Virus genome (UHGV): UHGV-1335316
Strand: one strand, 5' to 3'
DNA from: a virus
DNA length: 10,734 nt
Shown: piece by piece, positions 1 through 6,365 of the stretch
How positions within the stretch are numbered: position 1 is the stretch's first letter
How the letters are laid out: each line of letters starts with the position of its first letter
Notes under the pieces: model-generated
The model's input: the letters and a program-made list of their open reading frames with translations, nothing else
Database searches by the model: none
What the model was told of the DNA's origin: nothing
Translations under genes and position numbers: made by a program

Positions 1-157
1 GATGGTTATCTGTATGTTTTTTATATAGATTTATTTTTTGCAGGGTTGTGTGGATTGGGAAGGTGATCGAGAGATCTGAATTGCGATGTTTAGTGAGTTG
101 TATCTATTAATTTTGAAATAAATACAATTGGTTATGCGTTTTTTGGGGGGCGTTAGG

Positions 158-184
158 CAAAGAAAACCCGGCGCAGATGCCGGG
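158..184 (-). terminator. t_imm-like intrinsic terminator ending leftward cI-operon transcripts
   Basis: Hairpin cccggc(167-172)/gccggg(179-184) with a 6-nt loop; on the minus strand it is followed by a U-tract (plus strand caaagaaaa, 158-166). Position and sequence resemble lambda t_imm as recalled. Confidence 0.7.
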
Positions 185-234
185 TTGTGGTGGAGATCAA
201 TGCTTATTTGGGAGTGCTGGTTTTTTTATCGACT

Positions 235-438
235 CTAATNNNNNNNNNNNNNNNNNNNNNNNNNNNNNNNNNNAATCTTTTTGTTCCCAAGGTAATTTGG
301 CAGTTTTTCCATTGCGTAATTATCGTGTAGCCATTTTCTGAACACGCCAAGTGCCTCAATAGGATAAATCCAAGCTGTTATATGCTTATTTGCAGCTGAC
401 TGCCTGTAATTTTCGGGGAATAAATGTGGGTACTGCAC
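235..438 (-). CDS. hypothetical protein, distal ORF of the cargo in the rexAB slot; both ends uncertain
   Basis: ORF-track 67 codons with a GTG start at 438 (rc of cac 436-438) and ggggaaagg upstream. The C-terminus runs into the N-run 240-273, so the stop at 235-237 is provisional. The frame is also open upstream from 438 to a stop at 562-564, through the N-run 488-544. No recognisable motif. Confidence 0.4.
   Translation of the reverse strand: MQYPHLFPENYRQSAANKHITAWIYPIEALGVFRKWLHDNYAMEKLPNYLGNKKIXXXXXXXXXXXX
240..273. other. run of 34 N (masked bases or assembly gap)
   Basis: Directly visible; lies in the 3' end of the distal cargo ORF. Confidence 1.
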
Positions 439-466
439 CCTTTCCCCGAATTTCTCAGATAGCCCA

Positions 467-1132
467 TTAGCTGTCCAATACTTTCCCNNNNNNNNNNNNN
501 NNNNNNNNNNNNNNNNNNNNNNNNNNNNNNNNNNNNNNNNNNNNACAAAGCAAACCTCCGATCAGGTTCATGGCAATGTCAGCTATCTCTCTGAATACTG
601 CAAAATGAGTTGTCGGTATCTGATCGTTTAGCTTAATCCTTGCTCTATAGTTCTCGAATGAGATATCTATTGAAGCATTTGGGTTGTAATTTGACTTTTC
701 ATAAATCATTCGCTTAAGCGTGTACTCAGCCAAGCGAACAAAATTACCTATTGCGACTGACCTATCAAAATTGGTGGCATCTAGAGCGTAGTAACGGAGG
801 ATAGCCATGCAAACATAGTCAGGATAAGCATGAGTTTCCACGTTTGAGCTATTTAAAACGCGAGTGTATAGCTTTTCGACGTTATGAAACCCTTTCTCAG
901 CTAAATACGCAGCTACTTTTTGACCTCTGGGTTTGTTTTTCTCTGTGTTCCAGTTTGATGTGAACACCCTCAGTGGCGTGTCATCAATGCCGCATAACTT
1001 TGCGAGACCGTAGAGAGTTAGGTAAGGAGTTCCATCATTGAGAACGCCCATAGGAATATCATCAGAAACAACCTCTACTACAGGGAAAAGCTGCATTTGA
1101 TGCAGGGATTCGCTATTGCTGTTAATCGACAT
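467..1132 (-). CDS. hypothetical protein of unknown function, first gene downstream of cI (rexA position, but not RexA)
   Basis: 221-codon ORF with ATG (rc of cat 1130-1132) preceded by aagga. Same strand as cI. Translation contains no Walker A, HNH or other motif I recognise and does not resemble lambda RexA as recalled. AT-richer than cI. Contains the N-run 488-544 (19 X). Confidence 0.65.
   Translation of the reverse strand: MSINSNSESLHQMQLFPVVEVVSDDIPMGVLNDGTPYLTLYGLAKLCGIDDTPLRVFTSNWNTEKNKPRGQKVAAYLAEKGFHNVEKLYTRVLNSSNVETHAYPDYVCMAILRYYALDATNFDRSVAIGNFVRLAEYTLKRMIYEKSNYNPNASIDISFENYRARIKLNDQIPTTHFAVFREIADIAMNLIGGLLCXXXXXXXXXXXXXXXXXXXGKVLDS
488..544. other. run of 57 N (masked bases or assembly gap)
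   Basis: Directly visible; inside the C-terminal part of the 221-codon cargo ORF. Confidence 1.
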
Positions 1133-1218
1133 ATCTTAATGATTTCCTTATTTTTATTGTAGGGATCTTCTTTTTTATTTCCTACATCTAGATGCGTATA
1201 AAGTCTCTTGCTGCGGAC

Positions 1219-1938
<720 letters not shown>

Positions 1939-2026: not shown

Positions 2027-2236
<210 letters not shown>

Positions 2237-2334: not shown

Positions 2335-2377
2335 ATCTAAGGAAATACTGACATATGGTTCGTGCAAACAAACGCAA
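2335..2377 (-). promoter_or_regulatory. PRE-like promoter with CII-binding TTGC-N6-TTGC direct repeat
   Basis: Plus strand gcaaacaaacgcaa 2364-2377 is TTGCGTTTGTTTGC on the minus strand, straddling the cII start as in lambda PRE. The promoter extent is approximate. Confidence 0.6.
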
Positions 2378-2651
2378 CGAGGCTCTACGAATCGAGAGTG
2401 CGTTGCTTAACAAAATCGCAATGCTTGGAACTGAGAAGACAGCGGAAGCTGTGGGCGTTGATAAGTCGCAGATCAGCAGGTGGAAGAGGGACTGGATTCC
2501 AAAGTTCTCAATGCTGCTTGCTGTTCTTGAATGGGGTGTCGTTGACGACGACATGGCTCGATTGGCACGACAAGTTGCTTCGATTCTCACCAATAAAAAA
2601 CGCCCGGTGTGCAAGACCGAGCGTTCTGAACAAATCCAGATGGAATTCTGA
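2355..2651 (+). CDS. cII: CII transcriptional activator
   Basis: 98-aa [98 protein letters not shown], lambda CII-like. Confidence 0.95.
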
Positions 2652-3686: not shown

Positions 3687-3794
3687 ATGAAATCAAAAAT
3701 CAAATCGCTACTGGTCGCTGGTTATAACCACGGCTGGTTAAGTATTTCGTTTGTCGATTTCTGGTTTAAAAATCTCAATCTGAGGGAATCATGA
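3687..3794 (+). CDS. small hypothetical ORF (35 aa) translationally coupled to the primase-helicase gene
   Basis: ATG 3687, 4 nt after the initiator stop; translation MKSKIKSLLVAGYNHGWLSISFVDFWFKNLNLRES. Its stop tga 3792-3794 overlaps ATG 3791 (ATGA). Shorter than the ORF-track cutoff. Confidence 0.3.
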   Translation: MKSKIKSLLVAGYNHGWLSISFVDFWFKNLNLRES

Positions 3795-5671
3795 GGCCAA
3801 GTGAACTTAGCGACCTGCTTTGGGCGCAGGTTGACAGGGTGGCTCCGCACCTGTTGCCAAATGGCAAGAAAGAGGGGCATGAGTGGGTTGCCGGTAACGT
3901 CAACGGTGACAAGGGAAACAGCCTTAAGGTCAACCTTAGCGGCAAGAAAAAATGGGCTGATTTCGCTGAGGGAGACGGCGGTGACATGCTTGATTTGTGG
4001 ATGGCATGTCGTGGAATTAACCTGCATCAGGCTATGCAGGAAGCGAAAGCATTTCTCGGTATCAAGGATGACGATCACCATTTCGATGCCAGACGTGAGA
4101 AAAAATTCTCCAGACCTGATCGCAAGAAAATCGCCCGCTACGTTACCAGAACAGAATCCCATCTTGAGTACCTGCAATCGCGTGGCATATCGCCAGAAAT
4201 CGTAAAGCGCTACGAGGTTGTCAGCGGCAAGGTGTGGAATGGAGAGCGGGAACTGGATGCTCTGGTGATTCCGTACAAACGCGATGGTGAGTTGTTGCAG
4301 GTCAAGCGAATCAGCACTGAGCGCCCGGACGGGAAGAAAGTCATTATGGCAGAAGGTGATTGCGAACCTTGCCTGTTCGGATGGCAGGCTCTGGACGCTG
4401 GCGTGAGGGCGGTTGTACTTTGCGAAGGCGAAATTGATTGTATGAGCTATGCGCAATACGGCATCTCGGCGTTATCCGTACCGTTTGGTGGAGGGAAAGG
4501 CGCTAAGCAACAGTGGATTGAGTTTGAGTATCACAACCTCGACAGGTTTGAGGAAATATTCATCTCGATGGACGTTGATGATGTTGGTCGTGAAGCCGCA
4601 AGGGAAATCGCAAGCCGACTCGGTGAACATCGTTGCCGTCTTGTTACTCTGCCGTGCAAAGACATCAACGAATGCCTGATGAACGGTGTTACCGAGGATG
4701 AAATCTGGCAGTACATCGGCACGGCATCCTACTTCGATCCTGAAGAACTCTACAGCGCGCGAGAGTTTTACCAGGACACTATCAACGCTTTCTACGGCAA
4801 GCAGCAGTATCTGTTTAATCCACCGTGGGAATCTCTGGCAGATAAATTCCAGTTCCGTGAGGCAGAGTTGACGCTGGTCAATGGTGTGAACGGTCACGGA
4901 AAAACGGAGGTTGTCGGGCATATGGCACTTGAGGCAATGCGTCAGGGTGTGAAGACGTGCATCGCGTCACTTGAGCTGAAGCCTGGTATTCTCCTTAAGC
5001 GCCTTACCCGTCAGGCGACGTGCTGCAAGATGCCGCCAGTGCTGGAAATTGACTCTGCATTTAAATTTTATGACGAAAGACTTTGGGTGTTTGGCCTGAC
5101 CGGAACGGCGAAAGCCGACAGGCTGATCGAAATATTCGACTACGCTCGCCGCCGATACGGGATCCAGTTATTCATCATCGACAGCCTGATGAAATGTGGC
5201 ATAGGCGACGATGACTATAACGGGCAGAAGGCGTTTGTTGACTCGATTTGCGACTTCAAAAACAAAACAAACTCCCACGTCATTCTCGTTACTCACTCGC
5301 GAAAAGGAGACAGCGAAGAAAAACCAACCGGGAAAATGGACGTAAAAGGCTCTGGAGCGATAACAGACCTGACAGACAACCTTTTCATCATCTGGCGTAA
5401 CAAGGCTCGCGAGAGAGCGTTACAGAGAGTTCAGAGTGGTGAAAAGATGTCAGAGAAGGACGAACAGCTACTGGCATCTCCGGCATCTGTTTTGATGCTT
5501 GAAAAACAACGTAACGGCGAAGGTTGGGAAGGTGGTGTCCCGTTGTTCCTTGACGAGCAATCGCACCAGTTCCTGCAACTTGAATCAGGATCGCCATATA
5601 GCTACATCGCCAATATGCCGAAATCGGAATATGACGAGGCGTGGCGACAGGAAAACGTGACGGAGTATTAA
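3791..5671 (+). CDS. bifunctional DNA primase/helicase-like replication protein (TOPRIM domain plus P-loop ATPase)
   Basis: 626 aa. TOPRIM signature: acidic E in VVLCEGEIDCMSY and a DxD cluster in ISMDVDDVGREAA. Walker A GVNGHGKTE and Walker B-like LFIIDSLMK in the C-terminal half. SD gaggga before the ATG. It replaces lambda P. Confidence 0.85.
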   Translation: MRPSELSDLLWAQVDRVAPHLLPNGKKEGHEWVAGNVNGDKGNSLKVNLSGKKKWADFAEGDGGDMLDLWMACRGINLHQAMQEAKAFLGIKDDDHHFDARREKKFSRPDRKKIARYVTRTESHLEYLQSRGISPEIVKRYEVVSGKVWNGERELDALVIPYKRDGELLQVKRISTERPDGKKVIMAEGDCEPCLFGWQALDAGVRAVVLCEGEIDCMSYAQYGISALSVPFGGGKGAKQQWIEFEYHNLDRFEEIFISMDVDDVGREAAREIASRLGEHRCRLVTLPCKDINECLMNGVTEDEIWQYIGTASYFDPEELYSAREFYQDTINAFYGKQQYLFNPPWESLADKFQFREAELTLVNGVNGHGKTEVVGHMALEAMRQGVKTCIASLELKPGILLKRLTRQATCCKMPPVLEIDSAFKFYDERLWVFGLTGTAKADRLIEIFDYARRRYGIQLFIIDSLMKCGIGDDDYNGQKAFVDSICDFKNKTNSHVILVTHSRKGDSEEKPTGKMDVKGSGAITDLTDNLFIIWRNKARERALQRVQSGEKMSEKDEQLLASPASVLMLEKQRNGEGWEGGVPLFLDEQSHQFLQLESGSPYSYIANMPKSEYDEAWRQENVTEY

Positions 5672-5753: not shown

Positions 5754-6365
5754 ATGCGAATAAAAAAAACAATTGATCACGATGAGCTTCTGTCAACATT
5801 ATCATATGACTCAGAAACAGGAATATTTAAATGGCTAAAAACAAATTCAGTAGTAAGAGTAAAAGGTAGTATTGCTGGAGGTGTTAGTGGTGGTTATATA
5901 TGCATTAGCATAAATAATGTTTTGTATTATGCGCATAGGCTTGCTTGGTTCTATGTATACAAAAAATGGCCTCCTAAGTTTATTGATCATGTAAATGGGA
6001 ACAGACTTGACAATAGGATTTCAAATCTAAGACTGGCAACAGAGGAGCAGAATGCAAGAAACATTGTAGGTAATAGGTTAAACACATCCGGTGCGATTGG
6101 AGTGTCTTGGGATAAGACAACTGGCAGGTGGAAGTCTTATGTTGGTTATAAAAATAAGACAATATCGTTAGGGTATTTCGATAGCAAAGAAGATGCAGCA
6201 TTCATAGCAGCACTAGCAAGAAAGAAACTATATGGAACTTATGCGAGTAAAGCACTTAATTGCGAGCATGAGCTTTTATCTCAATTTAATAATGATGAGG
6301 ATAAACTTGCGGAATATCTTAAGGAAAAATCTAAAAGGACTCGAAAGCGTGTTAAAAAAAGATAA
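5754..6365 (+). CDS. HNH endonuclease with C-terminal AP2-type DNA-binding domain (homing-endonuclease-like)
   Basis: 203 aa. HNH_3-type motif IDHVNGNRLDNRISNLRLATEEQNARN; AP2-like segment GVSWDKTTGRWKSYVGYKNKTISLGYFDSKEDAAFIAALARKKLYG; basic tail. The gene and its flanks are markedly AT-rich compared with the neighbouring genes. Confidence 0.9.
   Translation: MRIKKTIDHDELLSTLSYDSETGIFKWLKTNSVVRVKGSIAGGVSGGYICISINNVLYYAHRLAWFYVYKKWPPKFIDHVNGNRLDNRISNLRLATEEQNARNIVGNRLNTSGAIGVSWDKTTGRWKSYVGYKNKTISLGYFDSKEDAAFIAALARKKLYGTYASKALNCEHELLSQFNNDEDKLAEYLKEKSKRTRKRVKKR

What the first reader, a model, noticed from the sequence alone, without database searches (positions are those of the whole stretch)
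438..564. The distal cargo ORF's frame stays open through the first ORF's stop and into the masked run: hidden start, overlapping genes, or one frameshifted gene of about 300 codons
Reading the minus strand, the frame of ORF 235-438 has no stop from 438 back to 562-564 (rc TGA), so it overlaps the last roughly 30 codons of the 221-codon ORF in a different frame (the two differ by one nucleotide of phase). There is no ATG/GTG/TTG in that frame in the visible bases between 562 and 438, so the only start is the GTG at 438 unless one is hidden in N 488-544. If the N-run length is off by one or two bases, or a real frameshift exists there, both ORFs would be one protein of about 300 aa.
Basis: seen in the sequence. 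Interest (0 to 1): 0.5.

Follow-up and report, generated by a model that had tools for sequence, protein, structure and literature searches.

The report
One bstA gene split by masking
The two overlapping reading frames are pieces of one ordinary, already characterised prophage defence gene (bstA, 301 codons) that only looks broken because the runs of N in the window are longer than the DNA they replace.

Summary
On the minus strand the frame of ORF 235..438 stays open back to the rc-TGA at 562-564, with no visible start other than the GTG at 438.

It is an artefact of N-run length, not gene overlap. Relatives identical at every other visible base of window 1-1596 carry one 906-nt CDS here. These are E. 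coli STEC1587 and ECO3183 and phage CL707; the product is 301 aa (WP_000026554.1).
- The stretch 488-554 holds 67 positions where relatives have 54 (+13, a shift of one phase).
- The run 240-273 holds 34 where relatives have 17.
- The run inside cI holds 10 where relatives have 7.

Filling in the real bases restores a 301-codon ORF at 197..1132 (-). GTG 438 is the internal codon Val228.

The protein is BstA, the abortive-infection protein encoded downstream of cI in lambdoid prophages (PADLOC E=1e-105; PHROG 6287; 42% identity end to end with BstA of phage BTP1). Primers published for bstA-Ec match the window's flanks.

One thing stays unexplained: visible bases 545-554 differ from every relative. 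A real lesion in this particular copy therefore cannot be excluded.

Side result: a direct repeat 56-57 nt apart straddling the start codon, as in the BTP1 aba self-immunity element, occurs in 54 of 126 bstA loci. The window has one at 1096..1167.

The parts
197..1132 (-). bstA coding sequence, 301 codons plus the TGA stop at 199..197. In the window it appears in three different phases because of two N-runs.
   Evidence: Single 906-nt CDS in relatives identical at the visible bases. Reconstruction gives 301 aa. PADLOC BstA E=1.3e-105 and PHROG 6287 E=6e-133. 42% identity over 99% of its length with BstA of BTP1.
555..1132 (-). It covers the N-terminal domain and the start of the C-terminal domain.
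   Evidence: Zero mismatches to L003 over 555-1596. Window 557-1132 matches BstA profile positions 4-181.
488..554 (-). Masked stretch: 57 N (488-544) plus 10 visible aberrant bases (545-554, ACAAAGCAAA where relatives have TGGGAATCCT). That is 67 positions where relatives have 54. It hides codons 194-211, GFPMDDTTSLDGSVGIHW, including the internal Met197.
   Evidence: The hidden peptide holds the invariant D204, S206, G208 and W211 and shows no length variation in close homologues or in BTP1.
274..487 (-). Segment B: codons 211 (last base) to 282. This is the 'distal frame'. Its upstream 16 codons (486..439) and the 67-codon ORF are continuous BstA sequence.
   Evidence: Zero mismatches to relatives. 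Translation. BstA profile positions 202-269, E=3.7e-26.
436..438 (-). GTG taken as the start of the distal ORF. It is the internal codon Val228.
   Evidence: Alignment with BTP1 BstA and 22 homologues. No spacer between the purine run and the GTG.
562..564 (-). rc-TGA that closes the distal frame upstream. In the true frame it spans codons Leu190/Ile191 (cTG Atc), so it is not a stop.
   Evidence: Translation of 565..545 reads LIGG.... Sequence.
467..469 (-). Apparent stop of the 221-codon ORF. It is out of frame in the real gene and is produced by the +13 length error.
240..273 (-). Second N-run: 34 N where relatives have 17 nt (AGCTCGGAGGCGTTACT). It hides codons 283-288 (SNASEL). The apparent stop at 235-237 is an artefact.
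   Evidence: Bases 238..197 translate to LESIKKPALPNKH*, the true C-terminus.
165..186 (-). Rho-independent terminator (Timm-like) 11 nt after the true stop.
   Evidence: Terminator scan. Annotated as Timm at the matching position of phage CL707.
1096..1167 (-). Candidate cognate aba (anti-BstA self-immunity DNA element). Direct repeat ATCCCTACAATAAA (1166..1153) and ATCCCTGCATCAAA (1109..1096), 57 nt start to start, straddling the ATG at 1132. This is inferred, not tested.
   Evidence: Same architecture as the BTP1 aba (CCCGCCA copies 56 nt apart; PMC8585504). Repeats at 56/57-nt spacing in 54 of 126 loci, against 0-6 for other spacings.
1219..1935 (-). Lambda-type cI repressor directly upstream on the same strand, so bstA is presumably co-transcribed from pRM. 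It contains a third N-run (1597-1606, 10 N for 7 real bases) that adds a spurious codon.

Best explanation
Window 197..1132 (minus strand) is a single gene, bstA.

The gene encodes a 301-residue abortive-infection protein. It sits immediately downstream of the lambda-type cI repressor, where phage lambda has rexAB, and is followed by the Timm terminator.

The apparent pair of overlapping ORFs arises because the N-runs in the window do not have the length of the DNA they replace.
- The stretch 488-554 is 13 positions too long, which moves the downstream part of the gene into another phase.
- The run 240-273 is 17 too long, which moves the last 13 codons into the third phase and creates a false stop.

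Shown here: the single-gene structure in relatives, the length errors, the restoration of the ORF, and membership of the BstA family.

From the literature (Owen et al. 2021, PMC8585504): BstA is made in the lysogen and gathers at the replicating DNA of an infecting phage. It blocks that phage's DNA replication, so no progeny are released. The resident prophage escapes through aba, a short DNA element overlapping the gene's start.

Inferred here: the 57-nt-spaced direct repeat at 1096..1167 is this allele's cognate aba.
For: 1. Ten complete E. coli genomes and phage CL707 match window 150-1250 at 99.5-100% and annotate one CDS there.

2. Against L003 the visible bases 1-239, 274-487 and 555-1596 have zero mismatches. 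All three N-runs differ in length from the real DNA (34 vs 17, 67 vs 54, 10 vs 7), while the roughly 2,250 visible bases contain no indel.

3. Putting the real bases back gives a 301-aa ORF.

4. The window's own pieces map colinearly on one BstA profile, at positions 4-181 and 202-269.

5. The full protein scores PADLOC BstA 1.3e-105, PHROG 6287 6e-133, and 42% identity gap-free across the masked part with BstA of BTP1.

6. Of 110 homologue clusters, 103 are at least 285 aa. 81 of 81 IMG/VR loci and 79 of 80 genome loci give one HSP in one frame.

7. The published bstA-Ec cloning primers match window 1195-1218 exactly, and 136-158 with one extra G. E. coli 2012C-4431, which is 99.6% identical to the window here, is in the paper's list of BstA homologues.
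Against: The ten visible bases 545-554 (ACAAAGCAAA) differ at 9 of 10 positions from every relative. If read in frame they would change the conserved G194-F195-P196 to L-L-C.

The 30-mer containing them is absent from IMG/VR, the GTDB species genomes and the JGI metagenomes, and none of the listed best E. coli complete-genome matches (15 of 43 records) extends into 545-554. The aberrant bases (as their 12-nt reverse complement) are also absent from the 85 loci fetched by then.

This particular copy may therefore carry a real local lesion, and the masked bases cannot be inspected. Why the N-runs have the wrong lengths is not known.
Confidence: 0.88

Rival explanations
1. The gene is bstA, but this particular copy is genuinely damaged. 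A small insertion or replacement around 488-554, of which 545-554 is the visible edge, frameshifts it and leaves a truncated N-terminal fragment: a pseudogene.
For: - Bases 545-554 mismatch all relatives at 9 of 10 positions and are not found in any collection searched.
- The aberrant-plus-masked stretch is 13 nt longer than the native DNA.
- Truncated or split alleles exist elsewhere. P0025 is a 241-aa cluster with 17 members. Salmonella phages S137, S135 and S107 annotate the homologue as two overlapping CDS.
Against: All three N-runs have wrong lengths, including one inside the essential cI gene and one with perfectly native flanks. The rest of the 2.2 kb has two substitutions and no indels.

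Three insertions landing exactly under three masks, with no other divergence, is not how natural divergence looks. It points instead to N-runs that do not preserve length, such as assembly gaps or a masking procedure.
Confidence: 0.1
2. There are two real genes: a 221-codon gene, and a separate small gene that overlaps its 3' end in another frame. The small gene would start at GTG 438 or at a start hidden under the mask.
For: Only the ORF picture in the masked window, plus the fact that relatives do have an ATG (Met197) under the mask in the distal frame.
Against: - The two pieces are consecutive parts of one profile and one protein.
- No relative has a stop between them.
- The tail of the 221-codon ORF, GKVLDS*, is out-of-frame reading of BstA codons.
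- There is no spaced Shine-Dalgarno sequence before GTG 438.
Confidence: 0.01
3. Programmed ribosomal frameshifting joins the two frames in a gene that is genuinely out of phase.
For: None beyond the one-nucleotide phase difference seen in the masked window.
Against: In unmasked relatives the frames are simply continuous. No homologue among 161 loci needs a shift at this position.
Confidence: 0.01

Closest known systems
BstA of Salmonella prophage BTP1 (STMMW_03531, st313-td; Owen et al. 2021, PMC8585504)
   Same: - Full-length colinear homologue: 42% identity, 301 vs 307 aa, no gap across the masked motif.
- Same position directly downstream of the prophage cI-type repressor.
- Same repeat architecture across the start codon, 56 vs 57 nt spacing.
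   Different: Only 42% identical. The repeat sequence is ATCCCT... rather than CCCGCC. Per the paper, aba elements are cognate and not interchangeable. The host is E. coli and the immunity region is of the lambda cI type.
BstA-Ec of E. coli NCTC10963 (E4V89_RS07420), tested experimentally by Owen et al. 2021
   Same: The primers used to clone it with its native ribosome-binding site and terminator match window 1195-1218 exactly, and 136-158 with one extra G. The locus therefore has the same flanks and the same size class; the aligned region is 897 nt in the paper's table. A strain 99.6% identical to the window here (2012C-4431) is in the paper's homologue list.
   Different: E. coli carries at least two alleles. 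One group is about 93.6% identical and matches only window 150-1079, so its 5' end differs.
CL70704 hypothetical protein of phage CL707 (EF120459; per the Owen et al. 2021 reference list, Degnan et al. 2007) = RefSeq WP_000026554.1
   Same: The DNA is identical at every visible base except 545-554, and the 301-aa product is identical to that of the E. coli relatives. It has the same lambda-immunity context, with annotated Timm, pRM, oR and oL.
   Different: None in sequence apart from the window's N-runs and bases 545-554. That record predates the naming of BstA.
Lambda RexAB
   Same: Same slot between cI and the Timm terminator, transcribed with the repressor in lysogens. It is also an abortive-infection system (PMC8585504 discussion).
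   Different: The proteins are unrelated and the organisation is two genes. The window's protein matches only BstA in PADLOC apart from one marginal HTH hit. According to the literature the mechanism also differs: membrane depolarisation versus a block of phage DNA replication.
Split bstA homologues in Salmonella phages S137, S135 and S107
   Same: In these deposited records a BstA homologue downstream of cI really is annotated as two overlapping CDS (L004 1489-2256 and 2223-2411), the same picture as in the masked window.
   Different: The break lies near codon 245-255, not codon 194-211. It occurs in unmasked sequence, so it is either a real frameshift or a sequencing error, not a masking artefact.

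Membership tests
BstA abortive-infection proteins | Full-length sequence similarity to the BstA family | tested here: met
   PADLOC PDLC02356 E=1.3e-105, residues 8-286 on profile 4-281/292. PHROG 6287 'BstA abortive infection system' E=6e-133. 42% identity over residues 2-300 with BTP1 BstA. Homologues carry the precomputed Pfam PF26567.1, and two sources name theirs 'BstA-like C-terminal domain' proteins.
BstA abortive-infection proteins | One polypeptide of about 300 aa; both window ORFs belong to it | tested here: met
   The window pieces hit profile positions 4-181 and 202-269. 103 of 110 homologue clusters are at least 285 aa. 160 of 161 loci give a single HSP.
BstA abortive-infection proteins | Two-domain build with an N-terminal KilA-N-like DNA-binding domain | tested here: inconclusive
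BstA abortive-infection proteins | Encoded directly downstream of, and co-oriented with, a prophage repressor gene | tested here: met
   cI lies at 1219..1935 (-), 86 nt upstream. A terminator lies at 165..186 (-).
BstA abortive-infection proteins | Cognate aba DNA element overlapping the start codon, bounded by direct repeats | tested here: met
   The sequence architecture is present: an 11/14 direct repeat 57 nt apart across the ATG. The spacing is enriched across the family, 54 of 126 loci against 0-6 for other spacings. Whether it confers immunity was not testable.
BstA abortive-infection proteins | Blocks replication of superinfecting phage (abortive infection) | not testable with these tools
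   Shown for BstA-BTP1, BstA-Ec and BstA-Kp by Owen et al. 2021 (PMC8585504). The window's flanks match the bstA-Ec primers.
BstA abortive-infection proteins | Intact reading frame in this very copy | not testable with these tools
   Codons 194-211 and 283-288 are under N. Bases 545-554 are aberrant.
Lambda RexA/RexB | Sequence similarity to RexA or RexB, and a two-gene organisation | tested here: not met
   The PADLOC scan returns only BstA and one marginal HTH hit. Similarity to lambda begins only at window 1212, in cI.

The most novel reading that the evidence does not exclude
The 72-bp stretch 1096..1167 (-) is the cognate anti-BstA (aba) self-immunity element of this allele.

More generally, aba elements throughout the BstA family would follow one rule: a pair of direct repeats, specific to each locus, 56-57 bp apart, with one copy about 30-40 nt upstream of the start codon and the other in codons 6-11.

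Evidence for the rule:
- The spacing is found in 54 of 126 dereplicated loci, from Enterobacteria to Alphaproteobacteria, against 0-6 loci for any other spacing.
- The repeat sequence changes between clades while the two copies stay matched.

In the library searched, only the BTP1 element had been mapped, and no family-wide rule was reported.
Probability: 0.55. Interest if true: 0.45.

Novelty: already known. Interest (0 to 1): 0.15.

Why it matters
For the scan, this is a warning. N-runs in these windows do not preserve length, so any argument about reading frames, stops or overlaps that crosses a run of N is unsafe. All three runs here are too long, by 17, 13 and 3 positions.

Biologically the locus is an ordinary example of a known arrangement: a lambda-immunity prophage carrying the BstA abortive-infection gene in the rexAB slot.

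The only part that could add knowledge is the side observation. The repeat architecture of the BTP1 aba element recurs at the same spacing across the family, which would allow cognate self-immunity elements to be predicted from sequence and then tested.

Tried and rejected
- **Protein family scans with no result.** Local Pfam-A and NCBIfam scans of the 301-aa protein returned no family. This is probably a matter of library version, because homologues carry the precomputed PF26567.1.
- **Tracing the aberrant bases 545-554.** An exact 30-mer scan of IMG/VR, the GTDB species genomes and the JGI metagenomes found nothing, and in a blastn search none of the 15 listed best E. coli complete-genome matches covers 545-554. 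The 12-mer occurs once in the window and in none of the 85 loci fetched by then. No homologue carries GGLLC. The origin of these bases stays unexplained.
- **No exact match to the whole window.** The best complete-genome relative covers 80% of it, so the unmasked source was not recovered.
- **Identity to BstA-Ec.** Identity between the window allele and BstA-Ec of NCTC10963 could not be measured. Only primers and coordinates were available.
- **Rejected readings.** Hidden start, overlapping genes and programmed frameshifting are rejected (see the rival explanations).
- **A conserved GGAAATCA box.** I looked for this as a second conserved element upstream of the start. It is present in only 36 of 126 loci at 1 mismatch or fewer, and it sits at the ribosome-binding-site position, so I did not pursue it.

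Full report
**Context.** The window is the early region of a lambdoid prophage. It holds a lambda-type cI at 1219..1935 (-), cro at 2036..2236 (+) and cII at 2355..2651 (+). After these come an O-like initiator, a primase/helicase, an HNH endonuclease, nin genes, Q, holin and endolysin. The finding lies between cI and the leftward operators, where phage lambda carries rexAB.

**Checking the observation.** The description is exact.
- The ORF listing reports 467..1132 (-) at 221 aa and 235..438 (-) at 67 aa with a GTG start.
- The N-run 488-544 is 57 bases, a multiple of three. The frame of the distal ORF therefore carries through it to the rc-TGA at 564..562.
- The visible codons of that frame have no stop and no start (GKYWTANGLSEKFGER for 486..439; TCG GAG GTT TGC TTT for 561..547).
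- Twenty-one visible sense codons without a stop is not remarkable by chance (about 0.37 by my arithmetic), so the observation needed outside evidence.

**What unmasked relatives show.**
- Megablast of window 150-1250 finds ten complete E. coli genomes and phage CL707 at 99.5-100% identity. Each has a single CDS under the match plus cI.
- In ECO3183, STEC1587 and CL707 that CDS is 906 nt and 301 codons. RefSeq calls it 'BstA C-terminal domain-containing protein' (WP_000026554.1).
- The matched stretch in those records is 1071 nt for 1101 nt of query, so the window is 30 positions too long.

**Where the extra positions are.** Anchoring on exact flanks shows where:
- 240-273 has 34 N, against 17 real bases.
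- 488-544 has 57 N plus ten visible bases that do not match, against 54 real bases.
- 1597-1606 inside cI has 10 N, against 7 real bases.

Against STEC1587 the visible bases 1-239, 274-487 and 555-1596 have zero mismatches, and 1607-2357 have two. There are no indels outside the masks. The cI of the relatives is the normal 237 aa; the window's N-run adds a spurious codon.

So the length errors sit exactly under the three N-runs and nowhere else. An excess of +13 shifts the phase by one and +17 shifts it by two. That produces the three apparent phases of one gene.

**Reconstruction.** Replacing the masked stretches by the relatives' bases gives one 301-aa ORF from the ATG at 1132 to the TGA at 199..197. 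Replacing only the N and keeping 545-554 also gives 301 aa, with G194-F195-P196 changed to L-L-C. Several features of the masked picture then resolve:
- The GTG at 438 is Val228.
- The rc-TGA at 562-564 spans codons Leu190/Ile191.
- The stop that ends the 221-codon ORF (467-469) and the stop at 235-237 are out-of-frame artefacts.
- The true C-terminus LESIKKPALPNKH* is readable at 238..197.
- A terminator follows at 186..165 (-), annotated as Timm in CL707.
- The relatives do have an ATG under the mask (Met197), but it is internal.

**Evidence from the window's own bases.** The visible part of the first ORF (557-1132) matches PADLOC's BstA profile at positions 4-181 (E=8e-65). The 71 codons 486..274 match positions 202-269 (E=4e-26). 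That includes the 16 codons upstream of the GTG. The two ORFs are therefore consecutive parts of one family profile.

**Identity of the gene.**
- The full protein scores E=1.3e-105 on PADLOC BstA and E=6e-133 on PHROG 6287 'BstA abortive infection system, replication inhibitor'.
- It aligns end to end with BstA of Salmonella phage BTP1 (42% identity), with no gap across the masked part.
- Of 110 homologue clusters, 103 are at least 285 aa.
- All 81 viral loci examined, and 79 of 80 loci from species-representative genomes, encode it as one HSP in one frame.
- The masked peptide GFPMDDTTSLDGSVGIHW contains the invariant D204, S206, G208 and W211 of the family.

**How it works (from the literature).** Owen et al. 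2021 (PMC8585504) showed the following:
- bstA is expressed with the repressor in lysogens.
- The protein localises to the replicating DNA of an infecting phage and blocks that phage's DNA replication, so the infection is aborted.
- The prophage protects itself through aba, a 63-bp DNA element covering 29 bp upstream and the first 34 bp of the gene.
- The terminal CCCGCC direct repeats of aba are required for its function.
- Homologues from E. coli NCTC10963 and from Klebsiella have their own cognate elements, which were not mapped.

The primers used to clone bstA-Ec match the window at 1195-1218 (exact) and at 136-158 (one extra G). Strain 2012C-4431, which is 99.6% identical to the window here, is in the paper's list of homologues. 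The window's gene is therefore this known E. coli BstA or a very close allele.

**What stays open.** The ten visible bases 545-554 (ACAAAGCAAA) differ at nine positions from all relatives. I could not find them next to this gene in IMG/VR, the GTDB species genomes, the JGI metagenomes or the 85 loci fetched by then, and none of the listed best E. coli complete-genome matches extends into them. No homologue has the resulting GGLLC.

They may be the edge of whatever caused the N-run, such as an assembly gap with a poor contig end or a masking procedure. They may also be a real lesion in this copy. Truncated and split alleles do exist elsewhere: the P0025 cluster, and phages S137, S135 and S107 with two overlapping CDS. 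I give the real-lesion reading about 10%. Three insertions placed exactly under three masks, one of them in cI, in otherwise identical DNA, is much better explained by N-runs that do not preserve length.

**Side result.** In the window the minus strand carries ATCCCTACAATAAA at 1166..1153 and ATCCCTGCATCAAA at 1109..1096. These match at 11 of 14 positions, lie 57 nt apart and straddle the ATG. The CCCGCCA copies of BTP1 lie 56 nt apart in the same position.

| Set of dereplicated bstA loci | Exact repeat of 6 nt or more at 56 or 57 nt spacing | Other spacings 30-90, each | Pseudo-start controls |
|---|---|---|---|
| 56 loci: BTP1 plus IMG/VR | 23 | 0-2 | 0-2 |
| 73 loci: species genomes | 31 | 0-4 | 0-4 |
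| 126 loci: combined | 54 | 0-6 | not run |

In each set the first copy was required to begin a short way upstream of the start codon: -50 to -15 for the first set, -60 to -5 for the other two.

The repeat sequence differs between clades while the two copies of a locus match each other. That is the pattern expected of a functional, locus-specific element. The paper, its supplements and later papers in the searched library describe the repeats only for BTP1. I therefore propose 1096..1167 as the candidate cognate aba of this allele. This is an inference and needs the plasmid rescue test.

**Verdict.** The feature as flagged is a masking artefact over an already known gene. Interest is low, apart from the untested aba rule.

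Noticed in passing
window 1096-1167 (-); L005 1464-1526; loci L006-L165: Direct repeats 56-57 nt apart straddle the bstA start codon, as in the BTP1 aba element. In the window they are ATCCCTACAATAAA and ATCCCTGCATCAAA. An exact repeat of 6 nt or more at this spacing occurs in 54 of 126 dereplicated loci, against 0-6 for any other spacing from 30 to 90. The repeat sequence differs between clades.
   Followed up: yes
window 545-554: Ten visible bases next to the N-run (ACAAAGCAAA) mismatch every relative at 9 of 10 positions. They would turn the conserved G-F-P into L-L-C. They were not found in IMG/VR, the GTDB species genomes, the JGI metagenomes or the 85 loci fetched by then, and none of the listed best E. 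coli complete-genome matches extends into them. Their origin is unknown.
   Followed up: partly
window 1597-1606: The N-run inside cI is 10 N for 7 real bases (GGCTTGA). It makes cI look 238 aa instead of 237 aa. This is independent evidence that N-runs in this window do not preserve length.
   Followed up: yes
window 235-273 and 197-239: The stop that ends the 67-codon ORF (235-237) is an artefact of the 34-N run, which replaces 17 real bases. The true C-terminus and the TGA stop are at 238..197, followed by the Timm-like terminator at 186..165.
   Followed up: yes
L004 1489-2256 and 2223-2411 (Salmonella phage S137; also S135 and S107): In these deposited phage genomes the BstA homologue downstream of cI is annotated as two overlapping CDS, and tblastn needs two pieces to cover it. 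This is a frameshift in unmasked sequence, either real or a sequencing error.
   Followed up: partly
window 1080-1250 compared with E. coli hits H11-H25 and locus L006: A second E. coli allele group (about 93.6% identity) matches only window 150-1079. In locus L006, whose protein is about 93% identical from residue 9 on, the first 8 or so codons differ and the repeat pair is different (GATCTCAGTG / GATCGCAGGG). This suggests that the aba-bearing 5' module is exchanged separately from the body of the gene.
   Followed up: partly
loci L006, L014, L019, L020, L025, L028, L029, L034, L035, L037, L038, L043, L089: In the enterobacterial clade closest to the window allele, both repeat copies usually contain GATC, the Dam methylation site (for example CCGATCG / CGGATCG, and CCGATCCCGG / TGGATCCCAG). 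In the window the upstream copy has GATC and the downstream copy has AATC. Any significance is unknown.
   Followed up: no
window 1091-1105 (-): A small hairpin, CTGCATCAAATGCAG, overlaps the second repeat copy at codons 10-14 of bstA. The terminator-like scan flagged it.
   Followed up: no
window 3791-5671 and 5754-6365: The replication module is not lambda's O/P. An O-like initiator is followed by a 626-aa primase/helicase and an HNH endonuclease. The right part of the window is closest to phages Sf101 and mEp043.
   Followed up: no
protein of window 197-1132 (-): Local Pfam-A and NCBIfam scans return nothing for this protein. Yet its homologues carry the precomputed Pfam PF26567.1, and RefSeq names it a BstA C-terminal domain protein. 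This looks like a library-version gap and should be kept in mind for other findings.
   Followed up: no
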